Shown here: positions 52,140 to 57,678 of the stretch, one piece after another
Position numbering within the stretch: position 1 is the stretch's first letter
Layout of the letters: the number at the start of each line of letters is the position of its first letter
Source: Candidatus Multivoradales bacterium
Lineage (GTDB): Bacteria; Acidobacteriota; Thermoanaerobaculia; Multivoradales; JAHEKO01
Assembly (NCBI GenBank): GCA_965248055.1
Contig: CBDFIJ010000004.1
Location: 1,088,001-1,152,000, forward strand
Reading direction: 5' to 3'
DNA length: 64,000 nt
Made by a program: the position numbers and the translations under genes
The notes under the pieces: generated by a model
Told to the model about the DNA's origin: nothing
The model's database searches: none
What the model saw: only the letters and a program-made list of their open reading frames with translations

Positions 52140-52246
52140 TGATCCTTAGTTGCTACCGCCTAACGTCTCGCGATTTCTGCCGTGCCGCCACTCTGCAGGT
52201 TGGGCCTGCCCTCAAAAGAGGCACCCGAACGTGATCAGAGCTCCCT

Positions 52247-52900
52247 AAAAGTGCCAGCCGAATATTAGCAAGAACGCAGCAACGATTCTCGTCCCTCTCA
52301 CCATGAGCAGGAGACTTCGATTCATACCGCCCGGAGGCGCCTTGGTGGAGGTCACATGCCGTACCATCCAAGGTCGCTTTCTTCTCAAGCCCTCACCCCT
52401 AGCCAACGACATCATTCGAGGTGTCCTAGGGCGAGCACAGAGGAAGTATCCGGTGGAAATCCACGCGTTTGTCTTTATGTCCAATCACTACCACCTGTTG
52501 ATCTCGGTAGCTGATTCCGAGATATAACCGAAAGTTGTGTATGAGAGTTTGAAGGCGGCGTATCCTGAGCCCGGTTTTCAAAGCTGGGTTCAATCATCCC
52601 AAAAGGAGGATACGCCGTTGAGCAAGAGTAACGTAGTTTCAATCGCCGCCAAGGCCATTTGTTCCCGTATTGCAACGGCTCCGTCCAGATTGACTTTCCA
52701 CTTCCATCCCAGAAATGAAACATAGCCGCGCCCCAACATCGGAAAACAAGAAAAATCCAGCAGAAAGAACGCGACCTAACCCCACTTGGCCTGCGATTCA
52801 ACCTGGAGAACGACGCGATCTCGCTCAAAAACACCAAACGAAAGTGTTGACATAGATCAAACGACGTCACGCACCATCCCCTCGAAACAAGGGTGGCACT
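52247..52900 (+). mobile_element. Internally deleted copy of the Y1/RAYT-like element
   Basis: 52247-52518 matches the 5' part and 52646-52900 the 3' part of 54299-55473. Confidence 0.85.
52519..52645 (+). mobile_element. IS256 left-end fragment nested in the deleted Y1 element
   Basis: Near-identical to the first ~125 bp of the IS256 at 18868. Confidence 0.9.
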
Positions 52901-53027
52901 GGAATTGACGAGTTGACGAGTTGACAGTTGACGGCCCGCACCGTCTCCTCAAAAAGAGGGTGGTACCTATGTCCGCACCCATGTCCCCTATGCCCGAATT
53001 GCGCCAACGTCGCCGACCTACCGCCTC

Positions 53028-54298: not shown

Positions 54299-55473
54299 AG
54301 AAAGTGCCAGCCAAATATTTGCAAGGACACAGCAACGATTCTCGTCCCTCTCACCATGAGCAGACGACTTCGATTCATCCCGCCCGGAGGCGCCTTGGTG
54401 GAGGTCACATGCCGTACCATCCAAGGTCGCTTTCTCCTCAAGCCTTCGCCCCTGGCCAACGACATCATTCGAGGTGTCCTAGGGCGAGCACAAAGGAAGT
54501 ATCCGGTGGAAATCCACGCGTTTGCCTTCATGTCCAATCACTACCACCTGTTGATCTCGGTGGCTGACTCCGAGCAAATGGCCAAGTTCATGAACCATCT
54601 CAACGGAAACTTGGCCCGCGAACTCGGCAGACTGCACAATTGGACGGACAAATTTTGGTCTAGGAGATACCAAGCCATCGTCATCAGTGAAGAACAAGCA
54701 GCGCAAGAAGAGCGAATGAAATACATACTCAGCCAGGGCGTCAAAGAAAGGCTGGTTGCCCATCCAGTTGATTGGCCTGGAGTTCAGAGCGTAGAGACGT
54801 TGCTGCGCCGCAAGTCGACCGTCGAAGGCCACTGGAGAGACAGGACCCGAGAGTTTCATGCTCGCGGGTTGGACAGTGGCTTGGTCTTTCGTACCAGGGA
54901 ACGAGTCTTCCTAACTCCCCTTCCCTGCTGGGCCGATCGCAATCCAAAGTGGATTGCTCAACGAATACAGGAGCTGATCCAGATTGTGCAACAGGACAAT
55001 CCGTTCATAGAGCGTTCAGAGATTCCCGACCTGGACCCTACATACCGACCGAGCAAGCTCAAGCGCCGACCAGCACCCATGTTTCACTGCGCCAGCAAGG
55101 CGATGCGCAGGATCCTCTATGAAGCCTACTCGTGGTTCGTCCTGGCATATCGTGAAGCCTGCGCTCGGTTGAAAGCTGGCAACCTCACCGCCGCCTTCCC
55201 TCCTGGGTCCTTCCCACCACCCAGGCCATTTGTGCCCGTATAGCAACGGCTCCGTCCAGATTGGCTTTCCACTTCCATCCCGGAAGTGAAACATAGCCGC
55301 GCCCCAACATCGAAAAACAAGAAAAATCCAGCAGAAAGAACGCGACCTACCCCACTTGGCCTGCGATTCAACCTAGAGAACGACGCGATCTCGCTCAAAA
55401 ACACCAAACGAAAGTGTTGACACACATCAAACGACGTCATGCACCGTCCCCTCGAAACAAGGGTGGTACCTAG
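54299..55473 (+). mobile_element. HUH Y1 (RAYT/IS200-like) element
   Basis: Left motif AAAGTGCCAGCCAAATATTT, right hairpin GCACCGTCCCCTCGAAACAAGGGTGGTACCT, both shared with the copy at 52247. Confidence 0.75.
54356..55243 (+). CDS. Y1 tyrosine transposase (RAYT-like)
   Basis: [23 protein letters not shown] (HUH), FWSRRY, YILSQGV..LV..P.DWPG. Confidence 0.9.
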   Translation: MSRRLRFIPPGGALVEVTCRTIQGRFLLKPSPLANDIIRGVLGRAQRKYPVEIHAFAFMSNHYHLLISVADSEQMAKFMNHLNGNLARELGRLHNWTDKFWSRRYQAIVISEEQAAQEERMKYILSQGVKERLVAHPVDWPGVQSVETLLRRKSTVEGHWRDRTREFHARGLDSGLVFRTRERVFLTPLPCWADRNPKWIAQRIQELIQIVQQDNPFIERSEIPDLDPTYRPSKLKRRPAPMFHCASKAMRRILYEAYSWFVLAYREACARLKAGNLTAAFPPGSFPPPRPFVPV

Positions 55474-55474
55474 C

Positions 55475-55576
55475 GGCGCCCGTGCCCGTATAGCCCGGTT
55501 ACGCCACATGAGTCCGCGCACCGAGGACTCGTACTTGGGTTGGGTCAAGAGATAAATCAGGTTTCATGATCTGAAG
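55475..55576 (+). pseudogene. intI: Integron integrase N-terminal (SAM-like) remnant
   Basis: IARLRHMSPRTEDSYLGWVKR*IRFHDLK resembles IntI IR..HYS.RTE..Y..W...FI.FH; TAA at 55553. Confidence 0.7.
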
Positions 55577-55612
55577 TTCAAAAAAAAGAAAAAAGAGGGT
55601 GGTACCTATGTC

Positions 55613-55785
55613 CTCGTCCATCAAACTTCGGATCCGCCGCAACGGATGAGACCGAGGAATTCGCCGTTCCAGGTCAACGTAGCTGAACATTGATCCCTCA
55701 CCTTGATCCGATCCACGCATCAAAACCTCCTATTCCCAATTATAGAATCGTTATGGTCAGGTGGTGGGGTTTTTCAGCAAGCTCT
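55613..55785 (-). mobile_element. Left-end fragment of an IS5/IS1182-like element
   Basis: End AGAGCTTGCTGAAAAA; AGGAGG RBS; MRGSDQGEGSMFSYVDLERRIPRSHPLRRIR, cut at a hairpin repeat. Confidence 0.75.
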
Positions 55786-56080
55786 TAGAGGTTGGATTTA
55801 CGATCTTACCGATCATTTCGAAGTACGAGAAGACAATCGCGATGAGCCCATAGGCAGCATGACACCAAATGTCTTGCTTCCCCTCCCGATCATCCTCCAT
55901 CTCCTTTAGCACCTGCACGGCAACACCAAGCTGCCAGACTTCCACTCTACATTCGAAGATTTCGATCTTGTCCGTGAGAGTCCACGGCTTCTGCTTTTGT
56001 TGAATGAACTGCATTGGTGGCAAGAACACATCCCCGGAGTTGAAGTCCAGGAACTTACTGCTACGGAACACCCCGTTCAT
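55786..56080 (-). pseudogene. Hypothetical gene truncated by the IS fragment
   Basis: AAGGAG upstream; KIEIFECRVEVWQL...YFEMIGK; C-terminus runs into the IS end. Confidence 0.55.
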
Positions 56081-56182
56081 ACGTTACCCACTACGAATCT
56101 CCTTTCTCCTTGATAAAGGCCTGACTGACCACGCCAGCGAACATCTCTCCTCGAAAAAGAGGGTTCTATGAGTCGGGCGGTC

Positions 56183-56441
56183 CAGTCAAGGGTTTTCTTT
56201 CCATCGATCATGCGTTCTTTAGATTCGGATCTAACCTCAGGACGAGCTTCTATTCGCACTCTCTTGGGTCCGTCTTTGGACCGGTGCATGGTGAGTTTTC
56301 CGTCTGTTGAGGAAATTCGATGCTCCCATCTGGCACGCGGAGTCCCAGCCTCCAACCCATTTATCGGAGTCATCGAAACTTTTCATCCGTCCTTTGAAAC
56401 TCATGACTGATTTCTCTTGCTTTCTTACTTCGAATCCTCGC
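56183..56441 (-). ncRNA. Candidate bridge/seek RNA region of the IS1111 element
   Basis: Long 3' non-coding region carrying GTGCCA (target-left match) and ATAGAAG (circle-junction match). Confidence 0.65.
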
Positions 56442-57455
56442 TTATGTGGCTTGTGGAAACGGCTGGAAATTCTCGTTTGTGACCCACAACCTATGCAGTA
56501 GGACTCCGATCTTTCTAGCCAGCGCTACCACTGCTTTGCTCTTACCTAGCCTTGCCACCAAACCCTCACCCCAGCGCTTGAGCGCTGAGTCCTTGTGACA
56601 CTGTAAAGATGCATGCGCAGCCTGGACCAGGAGTCGGCGCATCTCGCTATCCCCCTCCCGAGTGATCCGGCCACGGATCTCATGCCCTCCTGAGCTGCGA
56701 AGCGAGGGCCTCAAGCCCAGGCATGCTCCAACATCTCGACTCTTTTGAAACCGATCTGGATTGTCTACCCAGCCGGCAAAAGCCAAGCTCACCAGAGGCC
56801 CTACCCCGGGCACTGTCTGCAGACGAACGAGAAGCTCATCGGTACTTGCTTGAGCTTTCAGGTCATTCTCTAGCTCACAGATCCGATCCGACAGCTCACC
56901 GATCGTCGATACCAAGGGAGCCAGGGCCTCTGATACTCCCGAATCGAATCCCATCGATTCGTAACGCACCATGAAAATCTTGGCCGCACACGAAGGCATC
57001 CGGTAGCCCTGAGCACGCAGAGTCCCACGTACCGCGTTGATCAACGAAGTCCGAGACTTAACCAGAGCCGATCGCACCCGTAAACGAGTGCGAAGCTCCT
57101 GGGCCTCAGGGCTTCGCTGATACACCGGACGCAGAAACCCCAGGTCTAATCGGCTCAGCCGAGCTAAAACCTCGGCATCAATGCCGTCGGTCTTTAGTGT
57201 CGATTCGGCAATCAAACGCACTCGCCGGGGATTGACTACCGTTACCGCATGACCTAGATCACACAGCAACCGATATACCCACGGCGTCACCGGACCGCTC
57301 TCCAGCGTCACTTGTGCACGCTCACGAGAACCGAAGAACCCACGGATCGACGTCTCCGTCGTCGAAATCCGACGACGAACCGTCACCTCACCCTCCTGAG
57401 ATATCCCACATACCTCGCTGTACTTTGAGTGAACGTCAATGCCAAGATACTCCAT
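56442..57455 (-). CDS. IS110-family DEDD recombinase/transposase
   Basis: LGIDVH, LESG, KTDGIDA (DEDD); VPGVGP; LGLRPSLRSSG catalytic Ser region; ALARK. Confidence 0.96.
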   Translation of the reverse strand: MEYLGIDVHSKYSEVCGISQEGEVTVRRRISTTETSIRGFFGSRERAQVTLESGPVTPWVYRLLCDLGHAVTVVNPRRVRLIAESTLKTDGIDAEVLARLSRLDLGFLRPVYQRSPEAQELRTRLRVRSALVKSRTSLINAVRGTLRAQGYRMPSCAAKIFMVRYESMGFDSGVSEALAPLVSTIGELSDRICELENDLKAQASTDELLVRLQTVPGVGPLVSLAFAGWVDNPDRFQKSRDVGACLGLRPSLRSSGGHEIRGRITREGDSEMRRLLVQAAHASLQCHKDSALKRWGEGLVARLGKSKAVVALARKIGVLLHRLWVTNENFQPFPQAT

Positions 57456-57678
57456 GGTCGGTCTCCTTTCTCGGCTAGATGCCGATTTCTTTGGTTGATC
57501 CAAACTGGCACATTGTCCCAGCTTGGAGACCGACCGACTCATCTCATCTGGCACCTCTGTCTGCGTCAATATGGGGCACGATACTGCCTGGGGTACCGAG
57601 GACTGATAACTCGACTGCCTAGATCCTGATGAGTGGCTGGAGCGTTATCGACTCCTACTTAATGAGACCCAAAAACTA

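What the first reader, a model, noticed from the sequence alone, without database searches (positions are those of the whole stretch)
56140..57562. IS1111 bridge-recombinase element targeting the local hairpin repeat, with readable RNA guides
Seen: 15-bp subterminal IRs lie 7 and 3 bp inside the ends. Excising 56165-57549 regenerates TCTCCTCGAAAAAGAGGGTGGCACCT, almost identical to the free repeats at 52937-52974 and ~55590-55612. On the element strand the target is AGGTGCC-A-CCCTC and the predicted circle junction is CATAGA-A-GATGAG. The 3' non-coding region contains GTGCCA (56331-56336, target left), GGGT (56355-56358, complement of target right), ATAGAAG (56247-56253, junction left) and ATCT (56221-56224, complement of junction right). 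A TTGACT -35 box points out of the right end. Known: IS1111-group elements encode their guide RNA downstream of the transposase, and some IS110s target REPs. Inference: this is an intact RNA-guided recombinase with a new target specificity that parasitises another element's repeats. The 4-nt matches are weak on their own.
Basis: partly seen in the sequence, partly recalled or inferred. Interest (0 to 1): 0.8.

Follow-up and report, generated by a model that had tools for sequence, protein, structure and literature searches.

The report
IS1111-type insertion sequence with readable guides
This is an intact but ordinary member of the IS1111 group of RNA-guided insertion sequences, sitting in a short repeat that marks the ends of another family of transposase genes; its target-reading RNA loop can be read and changes with the insertion site in related copies.

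Summary
Window 56165-57549 is a 1385-bp element. It has 15-bp subterminal inverted repeats set 7 and 3 nt inside the ends, a 337-aa DEDD/IS110-family transposase on the minus strand, and a 277-nt non-coding region downstream of the gene. The genome holds three identical full copies, one truncated copy and two end fragments.

The non-coding region folds into a conserved stem (56316-56377) around an internal loop. The 5' side of the loop is complementary to the right half of the target. The 3' side repeats the left half (GTGCC) plus AG. Across relatives with the same or near-identical element ends and 49-81% identical transposases, both loop sides change together with the flanking DNA: 56 of 64 positions pair, and 20 of 40320 permutations do as well.

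The target is the motif GTGCC-A-SCC. It lies about 50 bp upstream of paralogous Y1 (IS200/RAYT-like) transposase genes and, inverted, downstream of the window's Y1 gene.

Two points are weaker. The window element's own right guide fits its own four sites only 6-7 of 9. RNA, circle and activity are not shown.

Verdict: a new member of a known kind, of modest interest.

The parts
56165..57549 (-). Whole IS1111-type element, 1385 bp. On the element strand it begins AGATGAG and ends CATAGA.
   Evidence: Three 100% identical copies with these limits. A paralogous uninterrupted site gives the boundaries.
57543..57549 (-). Left terminal extension, 7 nt (AGATGAG)
   Evidence: The 7-nt left / 3-nt right extension is the IS1111 rule (PMC11187229 Introduction). 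Identical in the 9 relatives in which the left end was read.
57528..57542 (-). Left subterminal inverted repeat, 15 nt
   Evidence: pair I1, 93% complementary
57463..57467 (-). Ribosome-binding site AGGAG, 7 nt before the ATG
   Evidence: sequence context
56442..57455 (-). Transposase gene: 337 aa plus stop. DEDD RuvC-like domain plus Transposase_20 domain.
   Evidence: Pfam PF01548 3.7e-22 and PF02371 1.1e-19. NCBIfam NF033542 236.9 bits against a cutoff of 140. Aligns to IS621 8wt6 with D, E, D, D and the SG serine conserved.
56165..56441 (-). 3' non-coding region (277 nt) that encodes the predicted bridge/seek RNA
56316..56377 (-). Target-binding stem-loop: an outer stem of 11 pairs, an internal loop and an inner hairpin (56339-56353)
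   Evidence: RNAalifold consensus and pair counts: 99.3% of cells paired, 4 pairs with compensatory change. Further compensatory changes in the stem of L066.
56355..56365 (-). Right-target guide, on the 5' side of the loop (GAUAAAUGGGU); complementary to the top strand of the right target half
   Evidence: Covaries with right flanks in relatives: cognate 9/9 in L024, L033, L034, L035, L036. Permutation test.
56328..56338 (-). Left-target guide, on the 3' side of the loop (GCGUGCCAGAU). It equals the left target GTGCC, then AG, then the first element bases.
   Evidence: GUGCC / GUGAC / GUUCC variants match flanks GTGCC / GTGAC / GTTCC.
56238..56306 (-). Second conserved stem-loop domain. It carries AUAGAAG (56247-56253), which equals the right end ATAGA plus AG. 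Candidate donor-binding part.
   Evidence: Invariant AUAGAAG in 10 of 10. Hairpin 56267-56282 covaries. No convincing donor-right guide found.
56184..56189 (-). Outward-facing -35 box TTGACT, 19 nt from the right end. In a circle it would sit 17 nt from the hexamer GAAGAT that spans the junction.
   Evidence: TTGAC is kept at 19-20 nt from the end in all 9 elements (window plus 8 relatives) with a right end, within an otherwise variable stretch.
56168..56182 (-). Right subterminal inverted repeat, 15 nt
56165..56167 (-). Right terminal extension, 3 nt (AGA)
57550..57556 (-). Left half of the target (AGGTGCC on the element strand). This is also the end of the duplicated 3.26-kb segment.
56147..56164 (-). 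Right half of the target (ACCCTC...), which forms the small hairpin CCTC/GAGG
54356..55243 (+). Y1 (IS200/RAYT-like) transposase gene, whose family carries the targeted motif. Its own upstream copy of the motif is at 54304-54320.
   Evidence: Pfam Y1_Tnp 1e-11. NCBIfam REP_Tyr_transpos 58.1 bits, below the cutoff of 80. Motif upstream of 10 of 12 full-start paralogs, with one more interrupted by an IS copy.

Best explanation
Window 56165-57549 is an intact IS1111-group (IS110-family) insertion sequence. Its 337-aa DEDD recombinase is predicted to be guided by an RNA transcribed from the 277-nt region downstream of the gene.

Target-binding loop. The RNA has a stem-loop (56316-56377) with an internal loop. 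The 5' side (AAAUGGGU) would pair with the top strand of the right target half. The 3' side (GUGCC-AG-AU) would pair with the bottom strand of the left target half, and it runs on into the first bases of the element.

Second domain. This domain (56238-56306) carries AUAGAAG, which equals the right end plus AG. It may hold the donor.

Predicted cycle. The element should excise as a 1385-bp circle. At the junction, a conserved -35 box in the right end meets a -10-like hexamer, which would drive the transposase gene and the RNA. The circle should then recombine, at the A (or AG) shared by the junction and the target, into sites of the form GTGCC-A-SCC.

Where those sites are. In this genome the motif lies in a REP-like repeat about 50 bp upstream of Y1 (IS200/RAYT-like) transposase paralogs. 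It also occurs inverted next to small hairpins, including downstream of the window's Y1 gene.

Shown here: the anatomy, the copies, site specificity, guide/target covariation and structure conservation. Inferred: that the RNA exists, the circle, the promoter activity and the chemistry.
For: Family hallmarks:
- Pfam DEDD_Tnp_IS110 and Transposase_20.
- NCBIfam 'IS110 family RNA-guided transposase', 236.9 bits against a cutoff of 140.
- D7, E52, D90, D93 and the SG serine align with the IS621 catalytic residues.
- A 15-nt subterminal repeat with 7/3-nt extensions, which is the rule stated for IS1111.
- The longer non-coding region lies downstream of the gene (277 against 94 nt).

Site specificity. 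All four left-end flanks read GTGCC (three distinct sites). All four distinct right flanks read A-(C/G)-CC. A paralogous empty site shows a precise insertion with no duplication beyond the shared A(G).

Covariation.
- Relatives with the same or near-identical ends: 15 loci in one genome of the same family, 7 metagenome contigs, and 2 more genomes.
- Right guides and flanks: GUAUCCU with flank AGGATAC; GAAGCCUCU with AGAGGCTTC; GAAGUGGGU with ACCCACTTC; AAAAGGGU with ACCCTTTT.
- Left guides GUGAC and GUUCC go with flanks GTGAC and GTTCC.
- Cognate right-guide scores over 9 nt: 9, 9, 9, 9, 9 and 9 (L024, L033, L034, L035, L036, L041), 8 (L013, L067), 7 (L065) and 5 (L066).
- Taking one site per guide type, 56 of 64 variable positions pair. 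The permutation mean is 37, and 20 of 40320 permutations reach 56.

Structure. 99.3% of cells are paired, 4 pairs have compensatory changes, and 0 of 500 shuffles reach the covariation score.

Guide order. The top-strand complement lies 5' of the bottom-strand match, as reported for IS1111 seekRNAs.

Promoter. The -35 TTGAC is conserved 19-20 nt from the right end in all 9 elements with a right end, the window's included.
Against: - No RNA evidence. No listed run is on record as RNA.
- The single-sequence fold of the non-coding region is no better than shuffles (z = -0.22).
- No Rfam family matches.
- The window element's own right guide fits its own four right flanks only 6, 7, 6 and 7 of 9, wobbles included. 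Relatives' guides fit some of those sites better; L037's guide fits 9/9 and 8/9 on two of them.
- No 9/9 site exists in the genome.
- L066 fits only 5/9. In L024 the left guide has one mismatch to its flank.
- No convincing guide for the donor's right half was found. The -10-like hexamer matches only 3 of 6.
- Only about three independent full or truncated insertions exist, because two copies lie in one duplicated segment.
- The relatives are close kin, so covariation counts overstate independence.
Confidence: 0.87

Rival explanations
1. The element is a real IS1111-type insertion sequence, but its target choice in this genome is set mainly by the left guide plus 3-4 nt (GTGCC-A-xCC) and by the hairpin or single-strand character of the REP-like repeat. 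The 9-nt right guide is largely mismatched here. It may have been tuned to another host's repeat, with the element arriving recently by transfer.
For: - The window's right guide pairs with only 6-7 of 9 positions at its own four sites, while six relatives reach 9/9.
- The genome has no perfect site.
- The one other genome of the same genus that was searched has no copy (0 matches in G001).
- All full copies are 100% identical, which suggests recent spread.
- The right halves of targets start small hairpins.
Against: - The four sites still score in roughly the top tenth of 1995 GTGCCA sites. Scores of 6 or more occur in 95 of 1995.
- A ninefold repeat family, GTGCC-ACTTATTAGG, that pairs 8/9 with two G-T wobbles is unoccupied. 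Neither view explains this.
- There is no direct evidence of transfer.
Confidence: 0.3
2. The copies are inactive relics. The identical copies arose by segmental duplication or homologous recombination rather than transposition, and the guide-like matches are historical.
For: - Two of the three full copies lie inside one 3.26-kb duplicated segment.
- One copy is truncated, and two end fragments and two decayed solo right-end modules exist.
- Contigs of four runs (one sample) showed no empty-site or circle joints. Contigs drop rare forms, so this weighs little.
Against: - The copy at C4:1379055-1380439 and the truncated copy have unrelated flanks apart from the target motif.
- The reading frame is intact with all catalytic residues.
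- A relative has at least 14 complete copies at distinct sites with the same rule.
Confidence: 0.08
3. Target recognition is by protein only, and the loop/flank matches are coincidental.
For: The minimum-free-energy fold is not significant.
Against: - Five different right-guide sequences match five different right flanks at 8-9 of 9.
- Three left-guide variants match three left flanks.
- Only 20 of 40320 permutations reach the observed score.
- Stems are conserved with compensatory changes around variable loops.
Confidence: 0.03

Closest known systems
ISPa11 (IS1111 family, Pseudomonas aeruginosa), as described in PMC11187229 (sections read)
   Same: Subterminal inverted repeats with asymmetric extensions, a downstream non-coding region giving a seekRNA, insertion at one position of a REP sequence, and the top-strand complement placed 5' of the bottom-strand match.
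   Different: Different host phylum (the closest named relative is an Acidobacteriota MAG). Different target sequence. Here the REP-like motif is tied to many Y1 transposase paralogs. No experiment has been done on this element. Sequence identity to ISPa11 was not measured.
ISEc11 / ISXne4 natural reprogramming pair (PMC11187229, section read)
   Same: Close relatives keep the RNA stems and element ends but swap the target-matching loop bases together with the flanking target.
   Different: Here the series is larger, with about 8 guide variants on the same or near-identical ends. The left guide changes by single bases (GUGCC, GUGAC, GUUCC). None has been tested.
ISPpu9 / ISPpu10 (IS110 family, Pseudomonas putida KT2440; PMC12288879, abstract and Discussion read)
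   Same: Insertion into REP/BIME repeats, recombination at an AG dinucleotide, solo non-coding modules elsewhere in the genome, and a junction promoter in ISPpu10.
   Different: The ISPpu9 solo modules (ssr9) carry their own end-like boxes and form circles. The two solo modules here start exactly at the left-guide DNA and look like deletion products. In half of the guide types here the right guide specifies AC, not AG.
IS4321 / IS5075 (IS1111 family). Known to me only from the title cited in PMC11208160's reference list; the paper was not read.
   Same: An IS1111-type element that targets the terminal repeats of another transposable element.
   Different: Their targets are the 38-bp terminal repeats of Tn21-family DDE transposons (recalled, not checked). 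Here the targets are the terminal motifs of Y1/HUH-type elements.
IS621 bridge recombinase and bridge RNA (PMC11208160, PMC11208158; PDB 8wt6)
   Same: DEDD plus serine composite active site (aligned). Two-sided guide loops that read both strands. A guide extension that matches the partner DNA after exchange, like the handshake guides.
   Different: IS621 is in the IS110 group: its RNA is upstream of the gene, its guide order is reversed, it has a CT core and only 2-3-nt subterminal repeats. Phmmer E-value here is 2.4e-10, covering residues 2-317.

Membership tests
IS110 family (DEDD, RNA-guided transposases) | N-terminal RuvC-like DEDD domain and C-terminal Transposase_20 domain | tested here: met
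   PF01548 3.7e-22 over residues 4-147 and PF02371 1.1e-19 over 211-288. NF033542 236.9 bits, cutoff 140.
IS110 family (DEDD, RNA-guided transposases) | Catalytic D, E, D, D and the serine of the SG motif | tested here: met
   In the alignment to IS621 (8wt6), the query's GIDvh, tlEs, ktDgiDae and rsSGg align with the corresponding IS621 residues. The catalytic roles are taken from PMC11208158.
IS1111 group | Subterminal inverted repeats (7-17 bp, usually 11-13) | tested here: met
   15 nt, 14 of 15 complementary, at 56168-56182 / 57528-57542
IS1111 group | Asymmetric terminal extensions, 7 nt left and 3 nt right | tested here: met
   57543-57549 (7 nt) and 56165-56167 (3 nt), with boundaries fixed by copies and a paralogous empty site. 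The rule is from PMC11187229.
IS1111 group | Longer non-coding region downstream of the transposase gene; transposase of 330-350 aa | tested here: met
   277 nt downstream against 94 nt upstream; 337 aa
IS1111 group | C-terminal motif GL-P----S(T)G | tested here: met
   GLRPSLRSSG in the translation. Motif as given in PMC11187229.
IS1111 group | Transposase related over its full length to that of IS1111 (clusters with IS1111 references in a tree) | not tested
   No named IS1111 reference sequence was at hand. Plasmid hits are annotated only as 'IS110 family transposase' and are at most 37% identical.
IS1111 group | Site- and orientation-specific insertion without target duplication | tested here: met
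   All copies and fragments sit at GTGCC | element | A(C/G)CC in one orientation relative to the motif. Paralogous empty site.
IS1111 group | Non-coding-region RNA with a top-strand complement 5' of a bottom-strand complement of the target | tested here: met
   Met at DNA level. The loop sides at 56355-56365 and 56328-56338 covary with flanks in relatives.
IS1111 group | The RNA is made and binds the transposase; circular intermediate with abutted ends | not testable with these tools
   No RNA run is listed. Contigs show no joints, which is uninformative.
REP/RAYT system (the targeted repeat) | Y1/HUH tyrosine transposase of the RAYT type | tested here: inconclusive
   Pfam Y1_Tnp 1e-11, but NCBIfam REP_Tyr_transpos 58.1 bits is below its cutoff of 80 and IS200 29.2 is below 55.
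REP/RAYT system (the targeted repeat) | Gene flanked by inverted copies of its repeat, with the repeat dispersed in the genome | tested here: inconclusive
   The motif lies upstream of 10 of 12 paralogs. Inverted copies lie downstream of the window's gene. Dispersed copies are few and mostly near Y1 genes. Element limits were not resolved.

The most novel reading that the evidence does not exclude
This clade may show three unstudied properties of IS1111-type guides.

(a) The crossover needs only one shared base (A). In about half of the guide variants the right guide specifies AC, while the donor and the left guide carry AG.

(b) The right guide tolerates 2-3 mismatches in vivo, so one element can colonise several variants of a host repeat family.

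(c) The DNA that encodes the left guide repeats the left junction over about 10 bp (GTGCC-AGATG). It may therefore act as an internal pseudo-junction at which the left end, the gene and half of the guide loop are deleted. This would leave solo right-end modules, a decay route built into such elements.
Probability: 0.25. Interest if true: 0.5.

Novelty: new member of a known kind. Interest (0 to 1): 0.3.

Why it matters
It adds a well-resolved natural example from Acidobacteriota, far from the Proteobacteria in which IS1111 seekRNAs were studied. About eight guide variants ride on the same or near-identical element ends, each with its own insertion site. This is a ready-made natural reprogramming series that could be used to test guide rules: guide length, wobble, and the second core base.

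It also shows one mobile element family living in the terminal motif of another (Y1/HUH transposase genes), which matters for annotating these repeat-rich genomes. It does not change what is known about the mechanism.

Tried and rejected
- Rfam scan of 55000-58500 at E up to 1 gave only a chance hit to Acido-Lenti-1 (17.6 bits against a gathering score of 37) inside the gene. No bridge-RNA family matched.
- The single-sequence fold of the non-coding region was not better than shuffles (z = -0.22). Structure was therefore taken from the alignment.
- ATCT (56221-56224) as donor-right guide is rejected. It is present in 1 of 8 aligned relatives although their left ends are identical.
- I looked for another donor-right guide. 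The conserved CUCAC on the 5' side of the second loop pairs with only 4 nt (TGAG) of the left end, so I do not claim it.
- Two alternative closings of the second domain cannot be told apart, because both are invariant. GGACGG at 56387-56392 or GACG at 56301-56304 could each pair with CGUC at 56241-56244.
- Sequencing runs: no RNA holder is listed.
- Contigs of four runs of one sample, laid on 55900-57800, gave no joints, so there is no evidence on empty sites or circles either way.
- Alignment A3, which included L067, misaligned the 5' part of L067. Structure counts therefore use A2 (8 of the 10 sequences; L066 and L067 left out), and L066 and L067 were read by eye.
- L037 and L038 lack a right flank and were left out of the right-guide counts. 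L041 has the same guide as L034. The 13 same-target copies of the L013 type were counted as one.
- The second IS110-family gene at C4:3287444-3288403 was inspected, and no clear use of the same motif was seen.
- A search for solo modules in the relatives' loci found none.
- Plasmid tblastn gave only generically named hits at or below 37% identity. It could not place the protein within the IS1111 group.
Supplementary files were not requested. The supplementary figures of PMC11187229 and Supplementary Table 5 of PMC11208160 may hold target logos or RNA models that bear on novelty.
Full report
WHAT IS THERE

Window 56165-57549 is a 1385-bp element.
- On its own (minus) strand it begins AGATGAG and ends CATAGA.
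- A 15-nt inverted repeat, 14 of 15 complementary, lies at 56168-56182 and 57528-57542. It is the only terminal pair in 56100-57620. It leaves 7 nt outside on the left and 3 nt on the right.
- The minus strand encodes a 337-aa protein (56445-57455) preceded by AGGAG.
- The protein matches Pfam DEDD_Tnp_IS110 (3.7e-22) and Transposase_20 (1.1e-19). It matches NCBIfam NF033542 'IS110 family RNA-guided transposase' at 236.9 bits against a cutoff of 140.
- Against solved structures it aligns with the IS621 transposase (8wt6, E 2.4e-10). The aspartate, glutamate and two aspartates of the RuvC site and the serine of the SG motif are conserved (roles from PMC11208158).
- The region downstream of the gene is 277 nt. 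The upstream region is 94 nt.

COPIES AND SITES

The genome (3.4 Mb, 4 contigs) holds the following:
- three 100% identical full copies;
- one copy lacking the last 130 bp of the right end;
- two right-end fragments of 128 and 106 bp;
- two decayed (82-83% identical) right-end pieces with no transposase gene.

On the element strand every left-end flank reads GTGCC: AGGTGCC twice, AAGTGCC and CAGTGCC. The four distinct right flanks read ACCCTC, AGCCGAT, AGCCGAA and ACCCGC.

Two of the full copies are not independent. Window 54300-57556 is identical, with 0 mismatches, to C4:2107530-2104274, and the match ends exactly after the left target half.

For the copy at C4:1379055-1380439, a paralogous uninterrupted site at C4:1397846 shows the same sequence running straight through GTGCC-AGC. 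This fixes the boundaries and shows no duplication beyond the shared A(G).

WHAT THE TARGET IS

The gene at 54356-55243 is a Y1/HUH transposase. Pfam Y1_Tnp scores 1e-11. NCBIfam REP-associated tyrosine transposase scores 58.1 bits, below its cutoff of 80.

tblastn finds 16 pieces of paralogs in the genome, and 12 of them start at residue 1:
- 10 have the motif GT(G/A/T)CCA(G/C)C(C/T)GA about 50 bp upstream of the ATG;
- one has the motif split by the IS copy at C4:1379055;
- one has a diverged form.

Inverted copies (GGGTGGYACC on the plus strand), next to small hairpins, lie downstream of the window's Y1 gene and at the window copy's site. In relatives, a Y1 gene lies next to the element in L035 and L066.

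So the element lives in the terminal, REP-like motif of another element family. Whether that family counts as RAYT/REP or IS200-like is left open.

THE GUIDES

A scan of one genome per species found 15 loci in one Acidobacteriota MAG of the same family, with transposases 79-81% identical. A metagenome scan added seven contigs at 75-82%. Two further genomes gave elements at 70% and 49%.

Their ends are the same as in the window. Only the most distant, L067 (49%), differs, by a few bases in the repeats and at one position of the left extension. Their flanks differ:
- The common type in the MAG (13 of 14 complete copies) sits at GGTGAC | AGGATAC.
- Others sit at GGTGCC | AGAGGCTTC, GGTTCC | ACCCACTTC, GGTTCC | ACCCTTTTC and GGTGCC | ACCCGTTTC.

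In the aligned non-coding regions a stem (UUCGAUGACUCC with GGGAGCAUCGAA; window 56366-56377 and 56316-56327) encloses an internal loop and a hairpin.
- The 5' side of the loop is the reverse complement of the right flank: GUAUCCU, GAAGCCUCU, GAAGUGGGU, AAAAGGGU, AAAUGGGU.
- The 3' side is the left flank plus AG: GUGAC-AG, GUGCC-AG, GUUCC-AG.
- This order, top-strand complement first, is the one reported for IS1111 seekRNAs (PMC11187229).

Scores over 9 nt with wobbles allowed:
- 9: L024, L033, L034, L035, L036, L041
- 8: L013, L067
- 7: L065
- 5: L066
- 6, 7, 6, 7: the window's four sites

Taking one site per guide type and leaving out the invariant first base, 56 of 64 positions pair. The mean over all assignments is 37, and 20 of 40320 permutations reach 56. 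Non-cognate pairs average 4.3 of 8.

The structure is kept. 99.3% of cells are paired, 4 pairs have changes on both sides, and 0 of 500 shuffles reach the covariation score. Slid controls fall to 27-43% paired. These sequences are close kin, so the figures overstate independence.

Neither is met for the target guides.

DONOR SIDE AND PROMOTER

A second conserved domain (56238-56306) has a covarying hairpin (56267-56282). On the 3' side of its loop is AUAGAAG, invariant in 10 of 10 sequences, which equals the right end ATAGA plus AG. This mirrors the left target guide (5 nt plus AG).

It is not a guide. I found no convincing guide for the donor's right half.

PMC11208160 notes that donor-binding bases in IS1111 orthologues often sit in a multiloop. 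PMC11187229 reports that an 82-nt RNA with only target matches suffices for ISEc11. The lack of a clear donor-right guide is therefore not a contradiction.

The left target guide continues as AUG, which equals the first bases of the element after AG. This resembles the handshake guides of IS621.

The -35 box TTGACT lies 19 nt from the right end. In a circle it would be 17 nt from GAAGAT, which spans the junction and matches TATAAT at 3 of 6 positions. TTGAC is kept at 19-20 nt in all 9 elements (the window and 8 relatives) with a right end, in an otherwise variable stretch.

WHAT DOES NOT FIT NEATLY

- The window element's right guide fits its own sites less well than relatives' guides fit theirs. 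L037's guide would fit two of the window genome's sites 9/9 and 8/9.
- No perfect site exists among the 1995 GTGCCA sites of the genome. The occupied sites score in about the top tenth.
- A repeat with at least nine copies (GTGCC-ACTTATTAGG), which would pair 8/9 with two G-T wobbles, is unoccupied.
- In five guide types the right guide specifies AC while the donor and left guide carry AG.

COMPARISON AND VERDICT

Every structural hallmark of the IS1111 group that I could test is met. Placement in a tree with named IS1111 references was not done.

The following are already in print (IS4321/IS5075 by title only):
- REP-targeting members (ISPa11, ISPpu9/10);
- an IS1111 pair that targets another transposon's terminal repeats (IS4321/IS5075);
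- natural guide reprogramming (ISEc11/ISXne4);
- AG crossover sites;
- junction promoters.

This is a new member of a known kind. RNA, circle and activity remain unshown. No RNA run was listed, and contigs gave no joints.

Noticed in passing
G000 C4:2189021-2189188 and C4:2181141-2181311 (outside the window): Two decayed solo right-end modules (82-83% identical, no transposase gene nearby). Both begin exactly at the DNA that encodes the left target guide (GGTGCC-AGATGG and GGTGAC-AGATGG) and are preceded by REP-like ..GAAT(T)AC. This looks like a deletion between the left junction and the roughly 10-bp identical guide DNA. One of them ends in an inverted left-junction-like sequence.
   Followed up: partly
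window 54300-57556 = C4:2107530-2104274: A 3.26-kb segment is present twice with 0 mismatches. It comprises the Y1 gene, its downstream repeats, a 107-aa ORF and the IS. It is bounded on one side by the Y1 upstream motif (GAAAGTGCCAGCC) and on the other by the IS left target half. The Y1 unit may have moved or been duplicated with the IS already in its terminal repeat.
   Followed up: partly
window 52243-52521, 54300-54574; C4 paralogs listed: At least 12 paralogous Y1 (IS200/RAYT-like) transposase genes at 57-100% aa identity. Each has the GTNCCASC motif about 50 bp upstream. Many have 2-4 short tandem repeats (10-14 nt, each containing GGTNCC or GTGCC) just outside the motif. Similar tandem repeats flank relatives' insertion sites in metagenome contigs.
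   Followed up: partly
window 55614-55790, 52518-52645, 57572-57775, 57679-57891: Several other short dispersed repeat families: 127-206 bp, 4-10 copies at 93-100% identity, one in tandem at 57679-57891. Some end in TTGACA followed 17 nt later by TGGCAC, so they carry target-like GTGCC-ACTTATTAGG sites that are unoccupied.
   Followed up: no
C4:683411-683538 and C4:804842-806096: A 128-bp right-end fragment and a copy lacking the first 130 bp of the right end have near-complementary breakpoints (element positions 128 and 131). They may be two halves of one copy separated by a rearrangement of about 121 kb.
   Followed up: no
C4:3287444-3288403, 3129376-3130317, 3279564-3280505: Three further IS110-family transposase genes (25-30% identical to this one). 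The first lies near target-like motifs, but no clear use of them was seen.
   Followed up: partly
window 57897-59318 (-): A 473-aa ORF with a C-terminal prephenate dehydratase domain (Pfam PDT 3.6e-11) and a long unassigned N-terminal part. It lies next to the repeat cluster.
   Followed up: no
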